From Escherichia phage EP75: a stretch of DNA of 64,000 nucleotides. The stretch lies in sequence record MG748547; one strand, given 5' to 3'. A program made the position numbers and the translations under genes. The notes under the pieces were generated by a model that searched no databases, was not told the DNA's origin, and saw only the letters and a program-made list of their open reading frames with translations. Of the stretch, positions 1,405-49,767 are shown in pieces; within the stretch, counting starts at the first letter, position 1; the number at the start of each line of letters is the position of its first letter.

Positions 1405-2103
1405 TCAATGTCTAGCGGGGAGAACTCCCACTGGTTCGATACCTTCCATCACCAGGGAGTTCACCCCAACATCACTCATTCGAATCCATACTTTACCGCC
1501 TGGTCTTATTTCATAGATGTTCATTTCATTACCCACAGCAGATCCATTAACGAAAACACCCTGAGTGGCAATTCGGATCGGAGATTTGGTGTTATTAACT
1601 ATCTGAAATGATATTGCAACGTCTCTGGTGATTTCTACGCCCCTTGCTTGAGTATTCCTTCTGAGTTTGTCAAAGAAAGAAGGATTGAAAGTCGCTATGA
1701 TGCTATTATTCTGAGAGTAATAAATACTTGCGGATAGATATGGGATCTTTCCTTCGTCACCTTTCCTCAATAGGGGAATCGTGGTTTTCCAGTATGGTCT
1801 CAGTGAATGGTTGTTATCATCAAAACAACCAACAGCTTGAAGAGTCTGGAAGTTCTGAAAATCAGATACTACTTGATTCAGAATATTTTTATTGCATTTA
1901 TCAATGTCGGCTGAGATGTTAACAGGTATGGTTCTGATTTCAGGATCCCAGAGGTCGGTTACAGAAATGACGGACGTGACAAAGATACGGCAACTTGTGA
2001 GTGCAAGCACCATTATCATCGTCATGATCCATTTTCTGAATCCGCGTGTCAGGAACACTAAAACGTTCTCCACAGCAAAGGTGCTAACATGACAGGTGTA
2101 CAA
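1405..2103 (-). CDS. putative lipoprotein
   Basis: 232-aa ORF; N-terminal region has basic stretch RGFRKW, hydrophobic IMTMIMVLALT and lipobox-like LTSC; true start uncertain (2103 or 2025). Confidence 0.4.
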   Translation of the reverse strand: MYTCHVSTFAVENVLVFLTRGFRKWIMTMIMVLALTSCRIFVTSVISVTDLWDPEIRTIPVNISADIDKCNKNILNQVVSDFQNFQTLQAVGCFDDNNHSLRPYWKTTIPLLRKGDEGKIPYLSASIYYSQNNSIIATFNPSFFDKLRRNTQARGVEITRDVAISFQIVNNTKSPIRIATQGVFVNGSAVGNEMNIYEIRPGGKVWIRMSDVGVNSLVMEGIEPVGVLPARH

Positions 2104-18586: not shown

Positions 18587-18623
18587 ACTAACTAAGGGAT
18601 AACCCTATATCCCGAGGTGTGAC

Positions 18624-19073
18624 ATGTTCCTTACATCCTTTATTGACTGGATGAATATCATAAATGGCCTGAGGATCCCTGTTGGGAACCTCGGGCTTTC
18701 TCGTTCTTCTATGCCGCAAATAGATGCCGACAAACAAGAAGATTTTCACAAATATCTTGAAGACAACGGTGTGTCCATAGATGCTGCGCAAGTGCCCATC
18801 AAAATGCTTCGTCTTACCCAGAACGAAATCAATAAAATGAAGGTCTGGAAGATCATGAAGCAAATCAGAAATAAGAAACCTATGGGTCGAGTTTGGGTGT
18901 CTTCTGACAATTACGTTGTTGACGGTTCTCACCGATTTGTCGCTGCGTTGAACATGGATGGTAAACAGCGAATGAAGGTCTACAAAGTTGATTTACCCGC
19001 GATGGAATTCGTAAAACTCGCCAAACAATTTCAGGGTGTGCGGTACAGAACGGTCAGTGATACCCGTTTCTGA
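18624..19073 (+). CDS. ParB/Srx-like nuclease domain protein
   Basis: 149 aa; NYVVDGSHRFVAA resembles the ParB-like nuclease VVDGHHR motif. Confidence 0.45.
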   Translation: MFLTSFIDWMNIINGLRIPVGNLGLSRSSMPQIDADKQEDFHKYLEDNGVSIDAAQVPIKMLRLTQNEINKMKVWKIMKQIRNKKPMGRVWVSSDNYVVDGSHRFVAALNMDGKQRMKVYKVDLPAMEFVKLAKQFQGVRYRTVSDTRF

Positions 19074-19152
19074 ATACGATAGTTTATTGAAACCCTTTAC
19101 TCAACATGGTGAGCCGACTATCATTTTATCCAATGAAATAAGGAGAATCACC

Positions 19153-19842
19153 ATGAAACATTTAATCCTCGGGGTTGTGCTGGCAGGTCTGGCATTACCC
19201 GCCGCCGCCAAGCTGAACTCCACAGGTGAGAAACTGTGGTCTGATCTTTCCTACTGTGCTGGGTTCTCCCAGGCGGTCGCTATCGACAAGTCCGGTTCCA
19301 TAGAGAATTTTGCTGAACTTTGGAACACGGGTAACGTCTCCACTGCTGTTGTTAATGCTGGGATTGAGTTCAACCGTTACAAACAGGGAGCCTACAACTT
19401 GAAAGGCTACCTGAATGACGATGAATTTAACCGAGGAGGCATGGAGGCTGGCGATCTCATCATGACTGGCCGTATGGGCACACAAGGCCGTATGACTGTA
19501 AGGCAATGCCGTTCTCTCCCCTCTCCGGCATTACAGAAGGGTGTGCAAATCGGGCGTCGACATCTGGATCTGATCAATGATGGCAACCAATGCATCAAGG
19601 TGTTTGAATATAGTGCCGACCAAGAATCAGATCGACGTTTGAAAAAGGAATGGCGGACACGCGCCCTTGGATTGAGAGCATGGCTCGTAGAAAACGATTA
19701 TTACTACGAGGATCGTGTTCAGAACGGATTGAAAGATCTTTCTACTAATTTGTCTGTCAATCTAGACGACCCAAGGCTTTCGCGTGAACTCAAGCAAACA
19801 CGGATTGACTGCGACAATATGATGAAGGAGAACGAAAGATGA
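19153..19842 (+). CDS. secreted/periplasmic protein, function unknown
   Basis: AAGGAG SD; N-terminal signal peptide MKHLILGVVLAGLALPAAAK; several Cys. Confidence 0.5.
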   Translation: MKHLILGVVLAGLALPAAAKLNSTGEKLWSDLSYCAGFSQAVAIDKSGSIENFAELWNTGNVSTAVVNAGIEFNRYKQGAYNLKGYLNDDEFNRGGMEAGDLIMTGRMGTQGRMTVRQCRSLPSPALQKGVQIGRRHLDLINDGNQCIKVFEYSADQESDRRLKKEWRTRALGLRAWLVENDYYYEDRVQNGLKDLSTNLSVNLDDPRLSRELKQTRIDCDNMMKENER

Positions 19843-20159
19843 GAAACATAATATTCTTGTTATTCTTTTCTATGTTAGCATCATTCCAAGTTATGGCAAC
19901 TCCGGCCAGCAAATTGAATATATGTGCGGCCTGGTTGTCTACTTATCAACAATTTCACCCTGATGATAAAGATACATCCATCCTTTTATCAGATTATGAA
20001 GGTGAGTTGAAACGCCTTGATCTCTACAGCGTGGATCAAATAGAGAATGCTTTAGATTTGCCAATGATGGAGTCCGCTGCCGATAATAGCAAACAGACGA
20101 TCAAAGATCTGACTATGTGTCGGGAAATAGCGACTAATTTCGTTGGAAATCAAAGATAA
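19839..20159 (+). CDS. small secreted/periplasmic protein, function unknown
   Basis: 106 aa; hydrophobic N-terminus MRNIIFLLFFSMLASFQVMA; ATGA overlap with upstream gene. Confidence 0.45.
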   Translation: MRNIIFLLFFSMLASFQVMATPASKLNICAAWLSTYQQFHPDDKDTSILLSDYEGELKRLDLYSVDQIENALDLPMMESAADNSKQTIKDLTMCREIATNFVGNQR

Positions 20160-20206
20160 TTTTCAGGTTAAAATTTAACTTCCATTGAACTGAAAGGAAA
20201 TACTTC

Positions 20207-21016
20207 GTGATGATTATTACTAAAAAGATCGCCGAATCGATCGTTGAAAAGAATAAGATGTTCGCGCCCAACAAAGCAAAGGTCATTCTGATTCACGAAG
20301 ACGGGCGCGTCATCTTCGCTGAGAAGTTTGAGCAGGGTTGTGCTTTCTGGTTCGCAGATACTATGCGCGAAAGCAAGCTGCAGGGCATCATCTATAAATT
20401 AACCCTGGTTGCCAAGCGCAATGATCAGGGTGATTGGGTTACGGTCTGCGATTTCAGCTCTAAGGTAGAAGCTAAACCCAAAACTCGCCAAGAAAGGATT
20501 TTAGAGGCTCAGGAAAAACTTCGGGTTGCTCGCACATCATCCGCGGAGAAGCCGGAAATAAAACCAGCCGTTATTCCTGTCACCAATAATCCGCTCCCAC
20601 CTGTGGGTCAAAAGGCTTTCGAACAATATGTTGAAAAGAGAAAAGAAGAATCTATGAAGACTCCGGTAGAAAATAATGATGAGTCTGAATTTATTTCAAT
20701 ACGACAGTTGTGCCCGCAAGAACAACGTTATTCTTCTCCAAATGATTTATTTGTGTCATTCCGATGCAACGGAAAGATCATATTGTGTAAAACTCTGCGT
20801 GAACAACTACCATGGCCTAACATCAATATGATGGTGAGTCGCAATTTTAAACGATTTGCTATTAGTGAAGGGAACGATTATCCCGTAAACAAGAGCGGAA
20901 CGTATGCCAACAAACATATGTGTGGTAAGTTGTCTTTCCCTAACGATTCCGGAACCATCCGCGTTCGTTTAGAATGGGATGAAACCCTGAACATGTATGT
21001 TGGTGATATAAAATAA
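20207..21016 (+). CDS. hypothetical protein
   Basis: 269-aa ORF, no family recognised. Confidence 0.45.
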   Translation: MMIITKKIAESIVEKNKMFAPNKAKVILIHEDGRVIFAEKFEQGCAFWFADTMRESKLQGIIYKLTLVAKRNDQGDWVTVCDFSSKVEAKPKTRQERILEAQEKLRVARTSSAEKPEIKPAVIPVTNNPLPPVGQKAFEQYVEKRKEESMKTPVENNDESEFISIRQLCPQEQRYSSPNDLFVSFRCNGKIILCKTLREQLPWPNINMMVSRNFKRFAISEGNDYPVNKSGTYANKHMCGKLSFPNDSGTIRVRLEWDETLNMYVGDIK

Positions 21017-21030
21017 TTCAATAACATTAG

Positions 21031-21059
21031 GGCGGTTATTATTAAACCGCCTTTTATTT
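21031..21059 (+). terminator. intrinsic terminator
   Basis: GGCGGTT-ATTATTA-AACCGCC hairpin followed by TTTTATTT. Confidence 0.55.
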
Positions 21060-21743: not shown

Positions 21744-22031
21744 ATGTCCGGCGTATGGTGTGATGTATTATTAGTGAGATTTTCAAACGGGATGGATAAC
21801 CAGATTATTTCATTCTTTTATCCTGTTCCCTTTTCTTCTATGGGTCTGACTGTCAAGCGCGTTCTTGACATAGAAGAAAAACTCAACGCCATGCCGTATA
21901 TGGCGCGACCACACGTGCTGGGTTGTGAACTGTTAAACGAAATGATGATCGATGAGAATCTTGTTGAAACAATTATCACGCGTGAACAGATGAAAACCAT
22001 ACTGGCTCAGGGAGAACCCCATGTCGAATAA
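21744..22031 (+). CDS. hypothetical small protein
   Basis: ATG at 21744 with GGAGGTG SD, in frame with ORF 21657..22031. Confidence 0.35.
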   Translation: MSGVWCDVLLVRFSNGMDNQIISFFYPVPFSSMGLTVKRVLDIEEKLNAMPYMARPHVLGCELLNEMMIDENLVETIITREQMKTILAQGEPHVE

Positions 22032-22341
22032 ACCGTTTGAACTTAAATTTCGCGTTTGGCATATTCCCCAGGTTCCTGGGATCGCTTTTCATGTTGAGGT
22101 TCCAACATTTGAAGAAGCGCAGCGCCTGAAGAATGCTCTGGGTGATTATGATTTGTTCCAGTTCAACAACAATATCAAGCCGGATTATTGCAATGCTTCG
22201 GGCATTCAGATTTATCAACATGATCTGACCGATGATGATCTTAATGATATGGGTCTGGATGATCGTTGGGTTGATATGGAAGATGTTGACGAACTCAACG
22301 ATTATTTCGAGCATCTGCGCAGTACAGGGTGGGAAATATGA
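22021..22341 (+). CDS. small acidic protein, function unknown
   Basis: 106 aa; C-terminal half very rich in Asp/Glu. Confidence 0.4.
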   Translation: MSNKPFELKFRVWHIPQVPGIAFHVEVPTFEEAQRLKNALGDYDLFQFNNNIKPDYCNASGIQIYQHDLTDDDLNDMGLDDRWVDMEDVDELNDYFEHLRSTGWEI

Positions 22342-22646
22342 TTTCAAAATATATTGTAAAGCCTGGGGATACTCTGTCCAGCATCGCTCTAAAATTATAT
22401 GGTGATGCCCAACAGTATATCAAATTAGCCAGATTCAACAATATCCAAAACCCAGGCCATATCGCGGTTGGTCAGGTTATTTGTTTACCCACACCTGTCG
22501 AAGACAAAGAACACATTATGATTCCGGTTCAACCGACTCAGAAGTGTTTGGATGCGATAGCTGGTTTATTTCGGCCAGGTTTTTGTGATGGAACTATTGA
22601 ACGTCACATTTATCAAGCAATTGTGGAAAACGCAGGTGTAAAATGA
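22338..22646 (+). CDS. LysM domain protein
   Basis: YIVKPGDTLSSIALKLYGDAQQYIKLARFNNI matches LysM peptidoglycan-binding motif; ATGA overlap upstream. Confidence 0.55.
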   Translation: MISKYIVKPGDTLSSIALKLYGDAQQYIKLARFNNIQNPGHIAVGQVICLPTPVEDKEHIMIPVQPTQKCLDAIAGLFRPGFCDGTIERHIYQAIVENAGVK

Positions 22647-22852
22647 TCGGATTAATTCGTTACCTGTTCATATTCGTAATTTCAACATTCATTTTATTTT
22701 TCTTTTTCAAATACTTGAAAGAGACTAAAATCTACCGAAGTAAACGTTGGCGCAAACGGGTGAGGGCAACTTTCCTGCTGCTGATTTCTTCGGTTACAAT
22801 AACCGCACTCACATTGGGTGCTTATATCTACATTTTTGAAGGGGTACATTGA
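22643..22852 (+). CDS. small integral membrane protein (two predicted TM helices)
   Basis: 69 aa with two hydrophobic segments separated by a basic loop; ATGA overlaps on both sides. Confidence 0.45.
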   Translation: MIGLIRYLFIFVISTFILFFFFKYLKETKIYRSKRWRKRVRATFLLLISSVTITALTLGAYIYIFEGVH

Positions 22853-23643
22853 TGTTCAAGAAACTGGTGTTCGGTGCAATTATGGTTCTGGCTGCAAGTC
22901 TACTTTCTGGTTGTGGTGGCGTTATCGATGAAGGTAACGTCGGCGTTCGTACCCAATGGGGTGAAGTAGACATGAACCCTGTAACGGCGGGGATCTACAC
23001 CAGCTTTGTTTCAAGCGTGGATGTTTACACGACCAAAGAAGCCGTTGTGAGTCTTACTAAAATGACTCCAAAGGCGAAAGACAACCTGACTCTGGAAGAC
23101 TTGGATGTAGATGTTTATTACACACCCAACGTCGCAAAGGTTCCGTGGTTCCATACCAAATTTGCTGGCCAGAGCGCTGAACTCGATGATGGCACGATAG
23201 CGGTGGGTTTCAATCTGGTTAAAACTGCTGCATCATCTTCTTCAATGGACGCCGTTTCTTCTCTTGATTCTATGACAATTCACACCCAACGTGCTGAATT
23301 GGAGAAGATGATTAAAGATCGCACTCAGCAACAATTAGAAACTGCTGCGCCTGGTATGTTCACAATTACACGCGTGTTAGTGAAAAAGGCGCTGACAGAT
23401 CCTTCTATTGAGCAGTCTATCCGTGATAATGTTATGGCGGACAAACGATTGGATACGGCAAGAAAGAACGTTGAAATTCGCGAGCAAGAAGCCCAAGCGA
23501 ACCAAAAACTGACCACCTCGCTGACGCCTGAATATCTACAACATGAATATAACATGGTGTTACAATCATGCGCCAACAGTGGAAAATGTACTCTGATCGT
23601 TGACGGATCCGGCTCAGGTAAAATGCTGAACGTCGGCAAATAA
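22852..23643 (+). CDS. lipoprotein with SPFH (band-7/HflC-like) domain
   Basis: Signal peptide plus lipobox LLSGC; EGNVGVRTQWGEV resembles the SPFH N-terminal motif of HflK/C; coiled-coil C-terminus. Confidence 0.5.
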   Translation: MFKKLVFGAIMVLAASLLSGCGGVIDEGNVGVRTQWGEVDMNPVTAGIYTSFVSSVDVYTTKEAVVSLTKMTPKAKDNLTLEDLDVDVYYTPNVAKVPWFHTKFAGQSAELDDGTIAVGFNLVKTAASSSSMDAVSSLDSMTIHTQRAELEKMIKDRTQQQLETAAPGMFTITRVLVKKALTDPSIEQSIRDNVMADKRLDTARKNVEIREQEAQANQKLTTSLTPEYLQHEYNMVLQSCANSGKCTLIVDGSGSGKMLNVGK

Positions 23644-29072: not shown

Positions 29073-31406
29073 ATGAGCAATGTAGACCTATTATCAAAAT
29101 TTGGTTCGCTGTTGAAAGAAGCGGACACTCCTGTTTCTGTTGAAGTACCATTTGAAATTCGTGGGGAAATTACCCACAAACTGACTTTCCATCGCGGTCG
29201 CGCTAAAAACTTCCGTTCTATCGGTAATGAATTCATGGAAATTGATTACCAACGCAATTCGGCAACCTTGGTTACATCCGATGACAATGGCGCTGGTAAA
29301 TCCACCATGCTTGTCTGGCTGCTGTTCTTCGTTCTGTACAACGACACGTACAGCAAGAAAGAGAAGAAAGCCGGATTGGTTAACTCTCAAAACAAAAAAG
29401 AATGCGTGGGTGAAGTTGAGTTCTCAACTCGCGGTAGTGAATGGAAAGTCCGTCGCGGTATCAAACCAGATTTTGTAGAAGTTTATCAGATGGTGGAAGG
29501 AGAGTGGAAGCAAGTCGTGAACGATGCGGCCAAAGCTGATATGAACAAGTACATCGTGAATCTCATCGGCGTGGACCAGAAGATGTTTGAGAACTCCCTG
29601 GTTCTAGGCAAAGAGAAGTTCATCCCATTCACGGAAATGTACACTGCCGACCGTCGCGCTATGGTAGAGACAATCTGGGATTTGGGGTTCTTCAGTCTGA
29701 TGAATGAAGATGTAAAAGCATCTATCAAGACAGTAACAAATGAACTCACGACGGTCACCAATGATTACGCCTTTCATGATGTAAATTTAAAAGGCCAGCA
29801 AGCGCAGTTGGAACAGATCAATAATTCCAATGCGATGATCCAGCAACAATCTGCTGATATCCTTGTCCAAGAGAAGGAACGTCTGAATAGTTTGAATTCA
29901 GATATCGGCGCAGTGCAGGAACAACTGACAGAGTCCCGTGCTCAAGACTCTAAATTGGAATCAGAATTATCAGAAGTCCGTAATCGCCTGAATGCCGAAA
30001 TGAAAGGGGATATCGATGCCATCAATGAAGAGTATGCGGCCAAAATCCAAGCAGTTCAGGATGAAGCCGATACCAAGGCTGAAGATTATGAACGCATAGA
30101 AGTATCCGACGGCGAAAGGTCGTTACAAGAAATCCGCGAAAGAATGGCGGTGGTCGCAGAACGCAAAAACGATCTGGTCAGCCAACGGAATGCTAATCTC
30201 GACGAACTGAATAAAGCGTTGGCGCGGCGTCAACAGGGAGAGAACTTCCGTTTCAAATTCGTCACAGAAATGGAAGGCCATGAATCTGCCATCAAACGTT
30301 TCCACGATATGGGCACTTGCCCTACGTGTACGCAATTAGTGTCGGACGATACCAAATCACGCATTGAAAGTCAATATTATCCACAAATCAGTGAACTGAC
30401 TGACAAGATTCTTCAGGTTGATACAGCCCTAGAAGAAGTGAATTCCCTGATTGAGAATTACAATGTCAGAGATTCAGAATTATCTTCTCAGATTTCGGTT
30501 ATTGACAAAGAACTGGATGCTTTGCGCAATGAAATCCGAGAAGCGGAATCAGCGATCGCGGCTTTAAAGCGCGATATCCAGGGGTTCTACGAGGTTGCGG
30601 CGGTTGAGAAAGCATCTTTACAGCGAGAACAACAATCTAAAGTTAATGATATCCTCAGAGCAGTAGATGTCCGTTATGAAGATATCACAACTTCTATTCG
30701 CCAAGCCCGTGATCAGCTCTCTAAGAGCATCAATGACACTGCTGATAAACTCACGAGCATGAAATCGCGTCGTGCTCCTCTGGAGGCATCTATTGCCGAT
30801 TTAGAACGTAAATTGGCTGTTAAGCCGACGCCTACCGATGCTCTCGAAGAAGAGATCACCCGCATCACGGAGTTAATGGATGGCTTGAACACAAGACGTG
30901 TGGAATTGGATGAAAAATTGCAAGATCTGAACCATCTGTTGTTCTTCCTGAAAGATGACCAGACCAAAGCGCGCATTATCAGTCTGTACTTGCCTTTCCT
31001 CAATAGCAAGATAAACGAGTATCTTGAAGCACTCAATATGTTCTTGGATATTGCGGTTGATGATACATTTGAAATCACTATGAGCGCTGCTGGTCGTAAA
31101 GGGCAAAGCATATTCTCCCTGTCTACAGGACAACGCAGCCGACTCAATCTGGCGGTGACATTAGCCCTGCGGGACGTCGCTAACCTGAAGGCGTCTGTAC
31201 AATGTAACCTCTTCGTGTTAGATGAGATACTCGAAAACATGAGTGAGCGTGGGGTTCAAGAATCCGTCGAGATGTTGAAACATAAATTTGGTGGGAACAA
31301 TCTGTTTGTCATCAGTCAGCGTGAACAGGAGTTCCAAGAATATTTCCAACATAACATTCGTTATGGTCTGCGTAATGGCATGACCGAAGTGATTAAGAAG
31401 GATTGA
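29073..31406 (+). CDS. 46: Rad50/SbcC-like recombination ATPase (gp46-like)
   Basis: 777 aa; Walker A DDNGAGKST, long central coiled coil with CPTC zinc hook, C-terminal signature and D-loop (FVLDE). Confidence 0.85.
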   Translation: MSNVDLLSKFGSLLKEADTPVSVEVPFEIRGEITHKLTFHRGRAKNFRSIGNEFMEIDYQRNSATLVTSDDNGAGKSTMLVWLLFFVLYNDTYSKKEKKAGLVNSQNKKECVGEVEFSTRGSEWKVRRGIKPDFVEVYQMVEGEWKQVVNDAAKADMNKYIVNLIGVDQKMFENSLVLGKEKFIPFTEMYTADRRAMVETIWDLGFFSLMNEDVKASIKTVTNELTTVTNDYAFHDVNLKGQQAQLEQINNSNAMIQQQSADILVQEKERLNSLNSDIGAVQEQLTESRAQDSKLESELSEVRNRLNAEMKGDIDAINEEYAAKIQAVQDEADTKAEDYERIEVSDGERSLQEIRERMAVVAERKNDLVSQRNANLDELNKALARRQQGENFRFKFVTEMEGHESAIKRFHDMGTCPTCTQLVSDDTKSRIESQYYPQISELTDKILQVDTALEEVNSLIENYNVRDSELSSQISVIDKELDALRNEIREAESAIAALKRDIQGFYEVAAVEKASLQREQQSKVNDILRAVDVRYEDITTSIRQARDQLSKSINDTADKLTSMKSRRAPLEASIADLERKLAVKPTPTDALEEEITRITELMDGLNTRRVELDEKLQDLNHLLFFLKDDQTKARIISLYLPFLNSKINEYLEALNMFLDIAVDDTFEITMSAAGRKGQSIFSLSTGQRSRLNLAVTLALRDVANLKASVQCNLFVLDEILENMSERGVQESVEMLKHKFGGNNLFVISQREQEFQEYFQHNIRYGLRNGMTEVIKKD

Positions 31407-31408
31407 TC

Positions 31409-31570
31409 ATGACTAATGTTCTGATTGCCACCGTTTTTCTAATTGCTTCTATAACCACGTTCATCTTAGGTTACAGGCGTGTATTTCAGGCTGATATTAT
31501 CACTGGCCTGATGTATATCGCGCTGGGTTCATTTCTGGCGTTCGGCTTCTCTGGGTTTACGTTAGAATGA
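31409..31570 (+). CDS. small hydrophobic membrane protein
   Basis: 53-aa ORF not in supplied track; MTNVLIATVFLIASITTFILG; ATGA coupling on both sides. Confidence 0.3.
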   Translation: MTNVLIATVFLIASITTFILGYRRVFQADIITGLMYIALGSFLAFGFSGFTLE

Positions 31571-37630: not shown

Positions 37631-37984
37631 ATGGTTAACGCGAGTATATTCATCAACCGTGGACTGCTTGCTATAGCCCACTCTCATGCCCTCCACTTCG
37701 TTACAACGTCCTATGCCAAGCACAAGGCACTCGGGGAGTTCTACGGGAAACTGGAGGACTTGCTGGACACCTTTACGGAAGCGTATATTGGTGCGGGTGG
37801 TATATACATTCCAGGATTCGAGAACATCAAATTATACAATCCTGAACCGATATCGTATATCAACAGCGTGGTCATCGACGTTAATGGGATCTACAATCAG
37901 TGTGATAGCCATTTACAAAACACGCTTGACGAAATCAAAACTTTGTGCTATCAAACGATTTACAAACTGAAGCAATTGTCCTAA
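37631..37984 (+). CDS. hypothetical protein
   Basis: 117-aa ORF. Confidence 0.4.
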   Translation: MVNASIFINRGLLAIAHSHALHFVTTSYAKHKALGEFYGKLEDLLDTFTEAYIGAGGIYIPGFENIKLYNPEPISYINSVVIDVNGIYNQCDSHLQNTLDEIKTLCYQTIYKLKQLS

Positions 37985-40483: not shown

Positions 40484-40672
40484 ATGGGACGTCCGATTAT
40501 CCACGTTTCAGAAGGCGCGATTTGGGTTATGACCCGCATCCCTAATGTTCATTTTCCTCAGTTCCAAGAGGAAATCGAGCAAGCAATGCTAACGATCCTG
40601 GAAAAATACGGGTACGACACTGAAGTCCGTGAATCCTTCAACGAAATTATGCCTGTGGTGGTTGCGCGATGA
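40484..40672 (+). CDS. hypothetical small protein
   Basis: 62-aa ORF with AGGAG SD. Confidence 0.35.
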   Translation: MGRPIIHVSEGAIWVMTRIPNVHFPQFQEEIEQAMLTILEKYGYDTEVRESFNEIMPVVVAR

Positions 40673-40974
40673 CCCTGACCCTCGAACAAATCGGCGAAGC
40701 AACCTGTCACCTCCTGAAGGAAAAGACAGGCAAGCAGTGGAAGCATCAGTTGTACAAAGATCACCCTGATGGCGTAGGGGCGATCATGATTGATAGCGAA
40801 GAGTCAACAGCCGTCCTCTTCTATTGGCAAGACACTGGCCGCTGGTCGGCTCAGACTTATGGTGGGAATAAGCAATCTAACTCCGTGCCTTCACCAGTGG
40901 AGGCATATGAAAGTCTGAAGAGAGGCATTCAAATGCAGATCGCTAATCTAAACACTCTCTTGTCAACTATCTAA
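40669..40974 (+). CDS. hypothetical small protein
   Basis: 101-aa ORF, ATGA overlap. Confidence 0.35.
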   Translation: MTLTLEQIGEATCHLLKEKTGKQWKHQLYKDHPDGVGAIMIDSEESTAVLFYWQDTGRWSAQTYGGNKQSNSVPSPVEAYESLKRGIQMQIANLNTLLSTI

Positions 40975-48141: not shown

Positions 48142-49767
48142 TCATGCGTCTTTACCACCAAAGTTGCCGCCATTATCCTCTAGTTCCGGTTTTATATCAA
48201 TTGGACCAGGACCAGAAGTAGATACTGGAGTTGCCCCAGCGCGTGATGCAGCACGACCAGCACCTTCAGCATATTTGATGTTGCCTTCAATAGTCTGCGC
48301 CACCGACAACTTATCACAAACTATTTCACTAGCCAGTATTTTAGGCACTTTCAAAGTATTGGAAACTTCCAACATCTCGCAGATGATACGCATCACGTTT
48401 TGCGCTTGAATTTCGGCCAGCTGTGAAAATTTCAACAGCGCCGTGCCAGCAACCACATTGGAATAGTTCGATGAATGTAGATGATAGACCTCACCTGTCT
48501 TGCGCTGAACTTCAGTCCCACCAATGGTCAGGTTGTGATCACGACCAACATAGTAACGTTTGTCAAACATCGTCAGATCATAGTGATCTTTAACTGATTT
48601 ATTGACCACGTCCCCGTCAGGAAGCATCTGCTTATAAGACCCCGAGGAGTGCATCCAATGGAGACGTTCCCCGCCTGGTGTGTCATCAACCTCCATAATA
48701 TGTCCCGAACGAGATGCCATGACATTGTTGTAAGGATAACGAGACCCGCCAGCAGAAGGAACCGACACCTCTCCTGTGTTATCAATATCTTGAACACGCC
48801 CAGAAGGAGGCGGAGTTTCCTGAACTTTTGGTGTACGATCAGGGATTGGCTCAGACCATTTACCATTTTGTTGTGTAGGAGCCGCCGATGCTGTCGTAGC
48901 AGGACCAGGCCAACGATAACCCAACACAGATGAGCGGCTGAAGCGACTCACCTTCACAGAATCTGATTGGTTGCCTCCAATACACCAAACATAATTGGCA
49001 TCGAATTTCTGCACGAACGCAACGTGTCCGAATGTTGGGTTGTTGCCACGCCGGAATACAACAACAGCGCCGTAGCGGGGTTCCGACAAAGGGGAACCCC
49101 ATTGCAAATATGAACGAGCCAAAGCCGAGCGCGTTGAAGTGTATCCTGCTTGGATCAACACCCATCCCACAAATGATGCACACCAGCTGACTTCATCTTC
49201 CGAAGCGCCCAAAGATGTTGTCTTGTGATATTCCAAAATCCTTGGGTTATTATTGAATTTACCAGAATATTCTTTGACACCTAATTCACCACGAGCCACT
49301 GTCATCCATTTCTCAGGATCATAACCGTCCACAGGAGGTTGAGGTTCTGGTTGAGGTTCGTCTTCAATCTTGACAGGAACATTTTCAACGGCGTTATATT
49401 TCTGCCTTTCTATAGATTGAACGACCTGGCCCAGCGCCAACGGGTTTGTGTCTGAACCATCTGTTGGTGTCGCCGCTGGCCAAACCCAGGCGATACGAAT
49501 ATTTTGGTATGCTTCATCCAAAGCAAAACCCATAACATCCGACCCGACTGTAATACCCGTTGGAGACCAGCCTAAACCTGCCGAGGAGGCGTTAGATGCT
49601 GGCATGAGCATTTTACCCCAAGGCAATAATTCGGTAGGTAAGAGAGTGGTATCTTCCGTGTGTACACCATAGATGCGCACAGCGACGCGCCCGTTCTGGT
49701 CGGGATCATTCACGTCTTCAACGCGCCCGTAAAACCAACGCAAGTTGTCTAACATATTGAAACCCAT
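48142..49767 (-). CDS. 5: baseplate central spike (gp5-like) with CHAP/NlpC-P60-like hydrolase domain
   Basis: N-terminus LRWFYGRVEDVNDPDQNGRVAVRIYGVHT aligns with T4 gp5 OB domain; central WCASFVGWV ... GHVAFV resembles a Cys-His peptidase rather than T4 lysozyme; Gly/Ser-rich C-terminus. Confidence 0.75.
   Translation of the reverse strand: MGFNMLDNLRWFYGRVEDVNDPDQNGRVAVRIYGVHTEDTTLLPTELLPWGKMLMPASNASSAGLGWSPTGITVGSDVMGFALDEAYQNIRIAWVWPAATPTDGSDTNPLALGQVVQSIERQKYNAVENVPVKIEDEPQPEPQPPVDGYDPEKWMTVARGELGVKEYSGKFNNNPRILEYHKTTSLGASEDEVSWCASFVGWVLIQAGYTSTRSALARSYLQWGSPLSEPRYGAVVVFRRGNNPTFGHVAFVQKFDANYVWCIGGNQSDSVKVSRFSRSSVLGYRWPGPATTASAAPTQQNGKWSEPIPDRTPKVQETPPPSGRVQDIDNTGEVSVPSAGGSRYPYNNVMASRSGHIMEVDDTPGGERLHWMHSSGSYKQMLPDGDVVNKSVKDHYDLTMFDKRYYVGRDHNLTIGGTEVQRKTGEVYHLHSSNYSNVVAGTALLKFSQLAEIQAQNVMRIICEMLEVSNTLKVPKILASEIVCDKLSVAQTIEGNIKYAEGAGRAASRAGATPVSTSGPGPIDIKPELEDNGGNFGGKDA

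What the first reader, a model, noticed from the sequence alone, without database searches (positions are those of the whole stretch)
19153..20159. Two consecutive secreted proteins: candidate periplasmic exclusion or lysis-inhibition factors
Both ORFs begin with hydrophobic signal-like N-termini and contain Cys pairs. The 106-aa one matches the size and architecture of T4 RI antiholin or Spackle, though I see no sequence homology. With a non-lysozyme tail spike, any spackle analogue would need a different target.
Basis: inference. Interest (0 to 1): 0.45.

Follow-up and report, generated by a model that had tools for sequence, protein, structure and literature searches.

The report
Paired secreted periplasmic proteins, mislabelled spanins
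Two overlapping genes of a Vi01-like (Kuttervirus) phage encode a conserved pair of small proteins exported to the host periplasm; public databases call them "spanins", but they lack the membrane anchors that define spanins, and their real job is untested (possibly protecting the infected cell against further phage attack).

Summary
Window 19153-19842 (A, 229 aa) and 19839-20159 (B, 106 aa) are real genes that overlap by ATGA. Mature-domain dN/dS is about 0.04. Both products have classical Sec/signal-peptidase-I leaders (n-h-c regions, A-x-A sites) and invariant, even-numbered cysteines (4 in A, 2 in B). AlphaFold models are confident, globular and all-alpha, and neither matches a solved fold.

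The window is a Kuttervirus (Ackermannviridae). Relatives annotate A and B as i-spanin, o-spanin or Rz-like spanin. That label does not survive testing:
- A has a 12-residue h-region followed by a conserved A-x-A site, not a transmembrane anchor, and its body is not a coiled coil.
- B has no lipobox here. A lipobox occurs in only 8 of 41 family clusters, including the Marshall and Maynard alleles where the label began.
- The spanin census (Kongari 2018) lists Vi01-like phages as spanin-less.

There is no homology to T4 RI or Spackle, although B shares Spackle's layout. The pair is core to Ackermannviridae of Enterobacterales, absent from virions, and sits behind a conserved sigma-70-like promoter.

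My best guess, which is inferred, is an early periplasmic complex that responds to superinfection. It would most likely work like Spackle, against the CHAP hydrolase on the tail hub. Function remains untested.

The parts
19096..19124 (+). Candidate sigma-70-type promoter (TTTACT-17 nt-TATCAT) just upstream of A
   Evidence: The consensus scan scores it 9/12. Both hexamers keep their positions in Taipeivirus May (TTTACT...TACTAT), Limestonevirus phiD3 and Marshall while the spacer varies. A TACTAT -10 is also present in distant locus L006. Inferred, not demonstrated.
19141..19145 (+). Ribosome-binding site of A (AGGAG, 7 nt before the ATG)
   Evidence: Read from the sequence. It is conserved in relatives.
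19153..19209 (+). Signal peptide of A (residues 1-19: MKH / LILGVVLAGLAL / PAAA, predicted cleavage AAA|K)
   Evidence: The uncharged stretch is 16-17 residues and ends in P-A-x-A. The A-x-A site is kept in all 32 family representatives, including the distant ones (ASA|A, ANA|G). AF2 pLDDT is below 50 for residues 1-19. dN/dS is 0.18 against 0.046 for the mature part.
19210..19842 (+). Mature protein A (210 aa, pI 6.8, four conserved Cys): globular all-alpha periplasmic protein, followed by its stop codon
19824..19830 (+). Ribosome-binding site of B (GAAGGAG), lying inside the 3' end of A
   Evidence: Read from the sequence. Together with the ATGA stop/start overlap at 19839-19842, it indicates translational coupling (inference).
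19839..19898 (+). Signal peptide of B (residues 1-20: MRN / IIFLLFFSMLASFQ / VMA, predicted cleavage VMA|TP); no lipobox
   Evidence: The PS51257-type lipobox test is negative for this allele. Leaders in the family are hypervariable in sequence and length, and nearly all keep a small-x-small site after the hydrophobic core. Leader dN/dS is 0.48.
19899..20159 (+). Mature protein B (86 aa, pI 4.5, Cys29 and Cys94 invariant): small helical bundle, followed by its stop codon

Best explanation
A and B are a translationally coupled pair of Sec-exported proteins. Each is cut by signal peptidase I and stabilised by disulfides, and each ends up soluble in the periplasm of the infected cell. A is a two-lobed all-alpha protein of 210 aa. 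B is an acidic helical bundle of 86 aa. They are probably transcribed early from their own sigma-70-like promoter and most likely work as a complex. They are not virion parts and they are not canonical spanins.

The mechanism I commit to is inferred. The pair is a superinfection-response module that works like T4 Spackle. It would sit in the periplasm and neutralise the peptidoglycan-cutting CHAP domain carried on the tail hub of later-arriving phages of the same family. That would protect the infected cell from lysis-from-without and hinder secondary DNA entry. The invariant helix1-helix2 face of B would contact the highly conserved A.

The steps fall into three groups:
- Shown here: gene structure, leaders, conserved cysteines, predicted folds, taxonomic distribution, purifying selection, and absence of membrane anchors.
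- Inferred: leader cleavage, disulfide formation, A-B complex formation, and early expression.
- Speculative: the molecular target.

My confidence in the localisation and anatomy layer is about 0.85. My confidence in the Spackle-like function is about 0.3.
For: Anatomy and export:
- Gene structure, leaders and cysteines.
- A-x-A sites are conserved despite leader turnover, and B's leader dN/dS is 0.48 against 0.037 for its mature part.
- AF2 models are globular and all-alpha.

The two act together: the ATGA overlap and adjacency are kept in distant loci L005, L006 and in phiMAM1.

Not structural: neither protein is in the CsCl-purified Sajous1 virion proteome, although their neighbour is (PMC10892097 Table 6).

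Early expression: the conserved promoter hexamers.

Spackle-like reading:
- B and T4 Spackle share their layout. Precursors are 106 and 97 aa, the first Cys is at residue 29 in both, the second Cys lies near the C-terminus, and both are helical.
- The hub at 48142-49767 carries Gp5_OB + CHAP.
- The Vibrio relative D510 has a hub without CHAP and has no A-B.
- Lipidation of B is facultative (8 of 41 clusters, three different leader contexts). From my own knowledge, this is the pattern seen in periplasmic hydrolase inhibitors such as PliC/MliC, and it is not the pattern of spanins.
- CBA120 tolerates MOI 10 without early lysis and shows lysis inhibition (PMC3184105).
- The genes lie in a block with other superinfection and envelope genes: a P22 gp17 family gene, a LysM protein and an SPFH lipoprotein.
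Against: - No homology or fold match to Spackle, RI or any known inhibitor.
- Nothing links A or B physically to the CHAP domain.
- The co-occurrence rests on very few clades, and Rhizobium phage RL38J1 has a CHAP-bearing hub without detectable A/B.
- Spackle acts alone, whereas here there are two proteins.
- Mature-domain dN/dS of about 0.04 shows no arms-race signature.
- A is more conserved than the replicative helicase within enteric-host phages (89-93% against 84-85%) but falls to 32-36% in distant lineages. That would fit a conserved host target equally well.
- Signal peptide cleavage is predicted by rule, not by SignalP or experiment.
Confidence: 0.3

Rival explanations
1. They are a two-component spanin, as GenBank and RefSeq annotate them. 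A would be the inner-membrane i-spanin and B the outer-membrane lipoprotein o-spanin. Together they would bridge the periplasm and fuse the membranes at lysis.
For: - Relatives are annotated this way, and phrog_3843 is named 'Rz-like spanin'.
- The overlapping gene pair resembles the 'overlapped' spanin architecture.
- Both products are periplasmic and carry conserved cysteines.
- The Marshall/Maynard-type allele of B has a true lipobox, LIAGC.
- These phages have no other recognisable spanin (PMC6139136; PMC6509533).
Against: - A has only a 12-residue h-region followed by a conserved P-A-x-A cleavage site in every homologue, so no stable anchor is expected.
- A is a compact ten-helix globule with two likely disulfides, not a coiled-coil rod.
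- B has no lipobox in this phage or in 33 of 41 family clusters. The residue before the conserved Cys29 is I, M, T, K, L, V or Q.
- B is a folded helical bundle.
- No experiment underlies the label.
- The pair is about 21 kb from the endolysin.
Confidence: 0.07
2. They are the periplasmic arm of lysis inhibition. B, or the A-B complex, would be a non-homologous analogue of the T4 RI antiholin. It would sense superinfection in the periplasm and hold the holin closed.
For: - CBA120 shows MOI-dependent lysis inhibition, and no holin or antiholin has been identified (PMC3184105).
- T4 RI is now known to be a signal-peptidase-cleaved soluble periplasmic protein of similar size (PMC8385771).
- Lysis-inhibition systems are non-homologous between phages, as with ICP1 TeaA/ArrA (PMC7182436).
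- The window encodes a homologue of the T4 accessory gene rI.-1 (37631-37984, 37% identity, E 5e-21), which is implicated in lysis inhibition (PMC2962797). No rI gene lies beside it.
Against: - No similarity to RI (probability 0.3%).
- The only PHROG-annotated holin candidate in the window (31403-31570, 55 aa, two membrane segments) would expose almost nothing to the periplasm for an RI-like partner to bind.
- A/B are not linked to it, to the endolysin or to rI.-1.
- From my own knowledge, RI is metabolically labile, whereas A and B look like stable disulfide-stapled globules.
Confidence: 0.17
3. They modulate a conserved host envelope component of Enterobacterales. Candidates include a periplasmic protease, nuclease or autolysin, or the machinery that exports surface polysaccharide or the receptor. 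The role would be host takeover rather than phage-phage interaction.
For: - The family occurs only in Ackermannviridae that infect Enterobacterales, plus two uncultured lineages. It is absent from Vibrio, Aeromonas and Rhizobium relatives that share the helicase.
- A is unusually conserved across phages of Salmonella, Klebsiella and Dickeya (89-93%) and then drops sharply to 32-36% in distant lineages, while the helicase stays at 63-65%.
- Purifying selection is strong.
- Both genes are in the 114-gene core of the family (PMC10892097 Table 5).
Against: - No fold or sequence clue points to any target.
- The same conservation pattern would arise from co-evolution with a phage partner.
- B alleles differ by about 28% even between close Kutterviruses with identical flanking genes, which is odd for a protein aimed at an invariant host target.
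Confidence: 0.25

Closest known systems
T4 Spackle (gp61.3), periplasmic inhibitor of the gp5 tail lysozyme
   Same: Both are phage-encoded proteins exported with a cleavable leader of about 20 aa. The mature part is small (about 75-86 aa) and helical. One Cys lies near the mature N-terminus, at precursor residue 29 in both, and one near the C-terminus. From my own knowledge, Spackle acts in the periplasm of the already infected cell.
T4 RI antiholin
   Same: Both are small soluble periplasmic phage proteins released by signal peptidase (PMC8385771). Kutterviruses show lysis inhibition (PMC3184105) and carry an rI.-1 homologue.
   Different: No homology (probability 0.3%). No T-like holin with a periplasmic domain was found in the window. 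A/B are not linked to rI.-1.
Two-component spanins (lambda Rz/Rz1, T4 PseT.3/PseT.2)
   Same: Both are adjacent, overlapping gene pairs whose products go to the periplasm and carry conserved cysteines. A minority of B alleles are lipoproteins.
   Different: A has no membrane anchor and B (this allele) has no lipid anchor. A is globular, not a coiled coil. The family is listed as spanin-less by the spanin census.
Soluble and lipoprotein forms of periplasmic hydrolase inhibitors and immunity proteins (PliC/MliC lysozyme inhibitors; Tai4/Rap-type all-alpha immunity proteins against NlpC/P60-CHAP-like T6SS amidases). This comparison is recalled from my own knowledge.
   Same: Both are small periplasmic proteins, often disulfide-bonded. 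The same fold occurs either free or lipid-anchored, matching the facultative lipobox of B. Tai4/Rap proteins are all-alpha and inhibit papain-like peptidoglycan amidases.

Membership tests
i-spanin (Rz-like) | N-terminal transmembrane anchor, type II (N-in, C-out), not removed | tested here: not met
   The h-region is 12 residues, the uncharged stretch is 16-17, and P-A-x-A|K is conserved in all 32 homologues. The best 19-residue hydropathy value is 1.76, against 2.0-2.6 for true membrane segments in the window. This is a rule-based call. SignalP and experimental data are lacking.
i-spanin (Rz-like) | Periplasmic domain dominated by long coiled-coil helices | tested here: not met
   The AF2 model shows ten helices of 5-25 residues packed as a globule (pTM 0.70), with four conserved cysteines.
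o-spanin (Rz1-like) | Lipobox with lipidated Cys, targeting the protein to the outer membrane | tested here: not met
   No PS51257-type lipobox in this allele, whereas the control lipoprotein at 22849-23643 scores positive. A lipobox is present in 8 of 41 family clusters, including the Marshall and Maynard alleles.
Two-component spanin system | Adjacent, overlapping or embedded gene pair | tested here: met
   ATGA overlap at 19839-19842. The overlap is conserved.
Two-component spanin system | Required for outer-membrane disruption; complements lambda Rz/Rz1 defects | not testable with these tools
   No experiment was found in the literature searched. The spanin census lists the family as spanin-less.
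Unimolecular spanin (T1 gp11-like) | Lipobox plus a C-terminal membrane segment | tested here: not met
   Neither A nor B has a lipobox or a C-terminal hydrophobic segment.
T4 RI antiholin family | Sequence or profile homology to RI | tested here: not met
   hhalign of the B family against T4 RI gives probability 0.3%. No PDB sequence hit at E<=10.
T4 RI antiholin family | Binds the holin periplasmic domain and delays lysis on superinfection | not testable with these tools
   Only the CBA120 lysis-inhibition phenotype is known.
T4 Spackle family | Sequence or fold homology to Spackle | tested here: not met
T4 Spackle family | Inhibits the tail-hub peptidoglycan hydrolase of superinfecting phage | not testable with these tools
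   The hub carries CHAP.
Sec/signal-peptidase-I secreted proteins | n-h-c leader with small residues at -3 and -1 | tested here: met
   The test is rule-based and comparative.
PHROG 4260 (A) and PHROG 3843 (B) | Full-length profile match | tested here: met
   E 3.1e-156 and 3.9e-58, both full length. The 'Rz-like spanin' name of phrog_3843 is an inherited label.

The most novel reading that the evidence does not exclude
A-B is how the 'spanin-less' Ackermannviridae handle the last barrier. It would be an anchor-free, soluble periplasmic two-protein system that takes the place of spanins in outer-membrane disruption or its control. That would explain why it is a core gene pair, why it sits in an overlapping spanin-like arrangement, and why some alleles of B have acquired a lipid anchor.
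Probability: 0.07. Interest if true: 0.85.

Novelty: new variant of a known kind. Interest (0 to 1): 0.42.

Why it matters
Vi01-like phages (Ackermannviridae) are widely isolated and are used for biocontrol and therapy of Salmonella, E. coli O157, Klebsiella and Dickeya. Despite this, their lysis programme is largely a blank:
- no verified holin
- no spanin
- an unexplained lysis-inhibition phenotype
- no known superinfection-immunity genes

Two things follow from this analysis. First, hundreds of GenBank and RefSeq records and one PHROG family carry a spanin label that fails its own defining tests. That label hides the open question. Second, A-B is a small, well-defined candidate pair for the periplasmic side of lysis control or superinfection immunity in this family. 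It is a core pair, it is the only soluble secreted pair in this 64 kb window, and it is under strong purifying selection. Simple knock-outs and a lambda Rz/Rz1 complementation assay would test it directly.

If B proves to inhibit a CHAP-type hub enzyme, it would be a second, independently evolved Spackle.

Tried and rejected
Searches that led nowhere:
- Pfam, NCBIfam and PADLOC scans of A and B found nothing. The only entry was a PqqC match at E 0.19, which is noise.
- PDB sequence profiles found no hit at E<=10.
- Foldseek against BFVD found only Ackermannviridae homologues. The AFDB library was unavailable.
- Exhaustive HMMER over 1.84 billion representatives found only 10 hits for A, all from the same phage lineage.
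- An IMG/VR scan found no new contexts beyond the family.

Ideas considered and rejected:
- A and B as paralogues, or A as a duplicated B-like domain. hhalign aligns only 10 columns around the first Cys, at probability 28%, so this is not supported.
- A as a T4 T-like holin with one membrane segment and a large periplasmic domain. It was rejected because the leader is short and carries a conserved cleavage site.
- A lysis cassette near the endolysin. The small ORFs at 40484-40974 have no membrane or signal features.
- Diversifying selection as a sign of an arms race. Mature-domain dN/dS is about 0.04.
- The longer GTG-started ORF at 19036-19842. It overlaps the upstream gene and would bury the leader, and all homologues start at the ATG.

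No transcriptome of any Kuttervirus turned up in the paper search.

Full report
**What the window is.** A megablast of 18600-20700 finds 273 phage records. The best are Salmonella phages Matapan, ST2 and Guerrero at 98.5-98.6% identity over the full length. All are Ackermannviridae, mostly Kuttervirus. The window is therefore a Vi01-like myovirus.

**The observation.**
- ORF A runs from ATG 19153 to TGA 19842 (229 aa), with AGGAG seven bases upstream.
- ORF B runs from ATG 19839 to TAA 20159 (106 aa), with GAAGGAG eight bases upstream.
- The two overlap as ATGA.
- The longer GTG-started reading at 19036 overlaps the upstream gene, and no homologue uses it.
- Both N-termini are textbook Sec leaders. 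A is MKH / LILGVVLAGLAL / PAAA|K. B is MRN / IIFLLFFSMLASFQ / VMA|TP.
- A hydropathy and lipobox scan of about 89 non-overlapping ORFs in the 64 kb window finds no other ORF that has such a leader and no further membrane segment. The other envelope proteins are an SPFH lipoprotein, three small two-segment membrane proteins and one candidate lipoprotein.
- A has four cysteines and B has two, all in the mature parts.

The finding's coordinates and description are correct.

**Family evidence.**
- A word-indexed search of 5.8 billion proteins gave 30 clusters for A (at least 78% identical) and 37-42 for B, down to 43% identity.
- An exhaustive HMMER search of 1.84 billion representatives with the A profile returned only ten proteins. 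Three are informative: P0073 (232 aa), P0074 (248 aa) and P0080 (126 aa).
- tblastn finds A in 269 and B in 280 phage records. All have Enterobacterales hosts: Salmonella, Klebsiella, Escherichia, Dickeya, Serratia, Shigella, Erwinia, Enterobacter and Yersinia.
- Both genes are in the 114-gene core of the Vi01-like family (PMC10892097 Table 5).
- A Vibrio relative, D510 (helicase 46% identical), goes straight from a ParB-like gene to the helicase at the syntenic site, with no A-B.
- In the distant uncultured loci L005 and L006, and in Serratia phage phiMAM1, the A homologue is again immediately followed by an overlapping B homologue. In phiMAM1 that A homologue is a short 126-aa version.

The unit under selection is the pair.

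**Leaders and cysteines across the family.**
- All 32 A representatives keep K/R, then a 12-13 residue core, then P/S-A-x-A. Examples are AAA|K, ASA|K, ATA|K, AHA|G, ASA|A and ANA|G.
- B leaders vary from 17 to 29 residues with almost no sequence conservation, yet nearly all end in a small-x-small site followed by P. Examples are VMA|TP, VHA|AP, AQA|AP and ALA|VP.
- Nei-Gojobori estimates over 22 loci give dN/dS of 0.046 for mature A and 0.037 for mature B. The leaders give 0.18 (A) and 0.48 (B). The upstream ParB-like gene gives 0.047 and the downstream 269-aa gene 0.17.
- A fast-evolving leader with a conserved cleavage motif in front of a tightly constrained body is what a cleaved signal peptide looks like.
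- C29 and C94 of B are invariant in 26 sequences.
- C35 and C220 of A are invariant in 18 sequences. C119 and C147 are missing only from the truncated homologue.

**Structures.**
- AlphaFold2 with the family alignments gives B a mean pLDDT of 89 and pTM of 0.76. It is a five-helix bundle, with C29 in the first helix and C94 in the last.
- A has pLDDT 82.6 and pTM 0.70. It has ten helices in two lobes joined by a loop at residues 121-139, and the leader is unstructured.
- Foldseek against viral models finds only family members, including the short forms in Serratia 3M and Erwinia phiEa2809.
- Pfam, NCBIfam, PADLOC and PDB sequence profiles find nothing.

**The spanin label.**
- Relatives annotate A as 'i-spanin' and B as 'o-spanin', 'Rz-like spanin' or 'putative lipoprotein'. 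phrog_3843 carries the same name.
- The earliest spanin and lipoprotein labels seen here are in the 2013 records of phages Marshall (i-spanin, o-spanin) and Maynard (conserved hypothetical lipoprotein). Later records cite them, for example the notes in phage bering. Their genome announcements report no lysis experiments.
- Those phages carry a B allele whose leader reads LLVLIAGC|VNAAP, which is a genuine lipobox.
- A PS51257-type test is positive in 8 of 41 B clusters, in three different leader contexts. It is negative in this phage and in all A sequences. It is positive for the control SPFH lipoprotein at 22849-23643.
- The conserved Cys29 of B is preceded by L-N-x, where x is I, M, T, K, L, V or Q. 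That is not a lipobox.
- A has no stable anchor and no coiled coil.
- The spanin census by the laboratory that defined the class lists Vi01, Maynard, CBA120, ECML-4, PhaxI, SFP10, SJ2, SJ3, AG3 and Dickeya RC-2014 as spanin-less (PMC6139136).

For this allele, two defining features of spanins were tested and not met. I therefore do not file the pair as a spanin. The gene arrangement is spanin-like, and the minority lipoprotein alleles keep a small probability alive.

**Comparison with T4 RI and Spackle.**
- I fetched both T4 genes. Profile comparison with the B family gives probability 0.3% for RI and 9.8% for Spackle. The Spackle alignment covers the leader and a C-x-W motif only.
- The layout of B and Spackle is nevertheless alike: leader length, first Cys at precursor residue 29 in both, second Cys 12-16 residues from the C-terminus, and a helical body.
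- RI is now known to be a signal-peptidase-processed soluble protein (PMC8385771). A cleavable leader therefore does not argue against an antiholin role.

**Context bearing on function.**
- *Virion proteome.* A and B are absent from the CsCl-purified Sajous1 virion proteome. The upstream ParB-N-like protein (11 spectra) and the SPFH lipoprotein (3 spectra) are present.
- *Promoter.* The 80-nt spacer upstream of A holds TTTACT-17-TATCAT. Both hexamers are conserved in other genera while the spacer drifts. This suggests host-polymerase, and therefore early, transcription.
- *Tail hub.* The tail hub at 48142-49767 (-) is Gp5_OB + CHAP, not a lysozyme. The hub of Vibrio relative D510 is 296 aa and has OB plus beta-helix only, and that phage lacks A-B. 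A Rhizobium phage has a CHAP hub without detectable A/B, so the correlation is suggestive only.
- *CBA120 phenotype.* CBA120 shows MOI-dependent lysis inhibition and no early lysis at MOI 10, with no holin or antiholin known (PMC3184105).
- *rI.-1 homologue.* The window has a homologue of the T4 lysis-inhibition accessory gene rI.-1 at 37631-37984 (PMC2962797). No signal-peptide gene lies beside it.
- *Holin candidate.* The only PHROG 'holin' candidate, at 31403-31570, is a 55-aa protein with two membrane segments and almost no periplasmic exposure. That makes an RI-like periplasmic clamp less attractive.
- *Conservation of A.* A is 89-93% identical between Kuttervirus, Taipeivirus and Limestonevirus, which is more than the helicase (84-85%). 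It drops to 32-36% in L005 and L006, where the helicase is still 63-65%.
- *Conservation of B.* B is 68-76% identical across those genera. It differs by 28% even from Marshall, whose flanking genes are 83-100% identical.

**Verdict.** Localisation and anatomy are well supported, at about 0.85. The pair is secreted, disulfide-bearing, all-alpha and periplasmic, probably forms a complex, is made early and is non-structural. Function is inferred. I weight the options as follows:

| Explanation | Weight |
|---|---|
| Spackle-like superinfection immunity directed at the hub CHAP enzyme | about 0.3 |
| Host-envelope modulator | about 0.25 |
| RI-like lysis-inhibition factor | about 0.17 |
| True spanin | about 0.07 |
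| Something else | the rest |

Its interpretation remains a live but unproven hypothesis. The main concrete result is that the database label for these genes fails its own membership test.

Noticed in passing
window 22643-22852 (+) and 22849-23643 (+): A 69-aa protein with two membrane segments (phrog_11680) overlaps the start of an SPFH/Band 7 lipoprotein that has a true lipobox (LLSGC; PF01145, phrog_200). The same pair directly follows A-B in distant locus L006. It is absent from Marshall, May and phiD3. The lipoprotein was seen in the Sajous1 virion preparation (3 spectra). The arrangement resembles bacterial NfeD-SPFH operons. Its function in the phage is unknown.
   Followed up: partly
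window 37631-37984 (+): This is a clear homologue of T4 rI.-1 (37% identity, E 5e-21; phrog_858, labelled 'starvation-inducible transcriptional regulator'), an accessory gene implicated in T4 lysis inhibition. No rI-like secreted protein lies next to it.
   Followed up: partly
window 48142-49767 (-): The gp5-like baseplate hub carries a CHAP amidase/peptidase domain (residues about 191-266) between the OB domain and the beta-helix, where T4 has a lysozyme. Many records call it 'tail lysozyme'. The Vibrio relative D510 has a 296-aa hub with no enzyme domain at all.
   Followed up: partly
window 31403-31570 (+): This 55-aa ORF has two hydrophobic segments and matches phrog_35473, annotated 'holin' (E 2e-38). 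It sits directly after the gp46-like recombination nuclease and about 10 kb from the endolysin. The syntenic small ORFs are annotated 'hypothetical protein' in May and Marshall. It may be the unidentified holin of Vi01-like phages.
   Followed up: no
B-family proteins P0009, P0014, P0017, P0018, P0024, P0026, P0030, P0032; loci L009 (Marshall) 20001-20327: A lipobox has appeared in B in three unrelated leader sequences (LIAGC, ISGVAC, IISSC), while sister alleles have Ser or no Cys at that position. B therefore seems to switch between free and lipid-anchored forms. The spanin and lipoprotein labels first appear on the lipobox-bearing Marshall and Maynard alleles, and the same labels are now found on B alleles that lack a lipobox.
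   Followed up: yes
window 18624-19073 (+): The 149-aa ParB-N-terminal-like protein just upstream of A is very conserved (83-93% within the family, and 64-70% even in L005 and L006). It is reported in virions (11 spectra in Sajous1; 'structural protein' in Limestone). That is an unusual location for a ParB-like nuclease or NTPase domain.
   Followed up: no
window 22021-22341 (+) and 22329-22646 (+): One gene belongs to the P22 gp17 family (PF17420, E 6e-52). It overlaps a 105-aa LysM-domain protein that has no signal peptide. RefSeq names the homologue of the LysM protein in phage May 'endolysin', although it has no catalytic domain. Both genes are missing from Marshall and phiD3.
   Followed up: no
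window 1405-2025 (-): This is a second candidate lipoprotein (leader MTMIMVLALTSC; phrog_3832; 'putative conserved lipoprotein' in Marshall). It is encoded next to tail genes, with no type II membrane protein beside it. This matches the spanin census's description of genomes with a lipoprotein gene but no linked i-spanin candidate.
   Followed up: no
window 20207-21016 (+), 21029-21053 (+): The 269-aa gene after B (phrog_3828, no leader) is the fastest-evolving gene of the block (40-59% identity between genera, dN/dS 0.17). In this phage it is followed by a terminator-like hairpin. A, B and this gene may therefore form one transcription unit.
   Followed up: no
L031 (Serratia phage phiMAM1) 5986-6366 and BFVD hits in Serratia 3M and Erwinia phiEa2809: In these genera A exists as a short form of 126-165 aa that corresponds to the N-terminal lobe only, and it is still followed by an overlapping B. 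The conserved functional core is therefore the A N-lobe plus B.
   Followed up: partly
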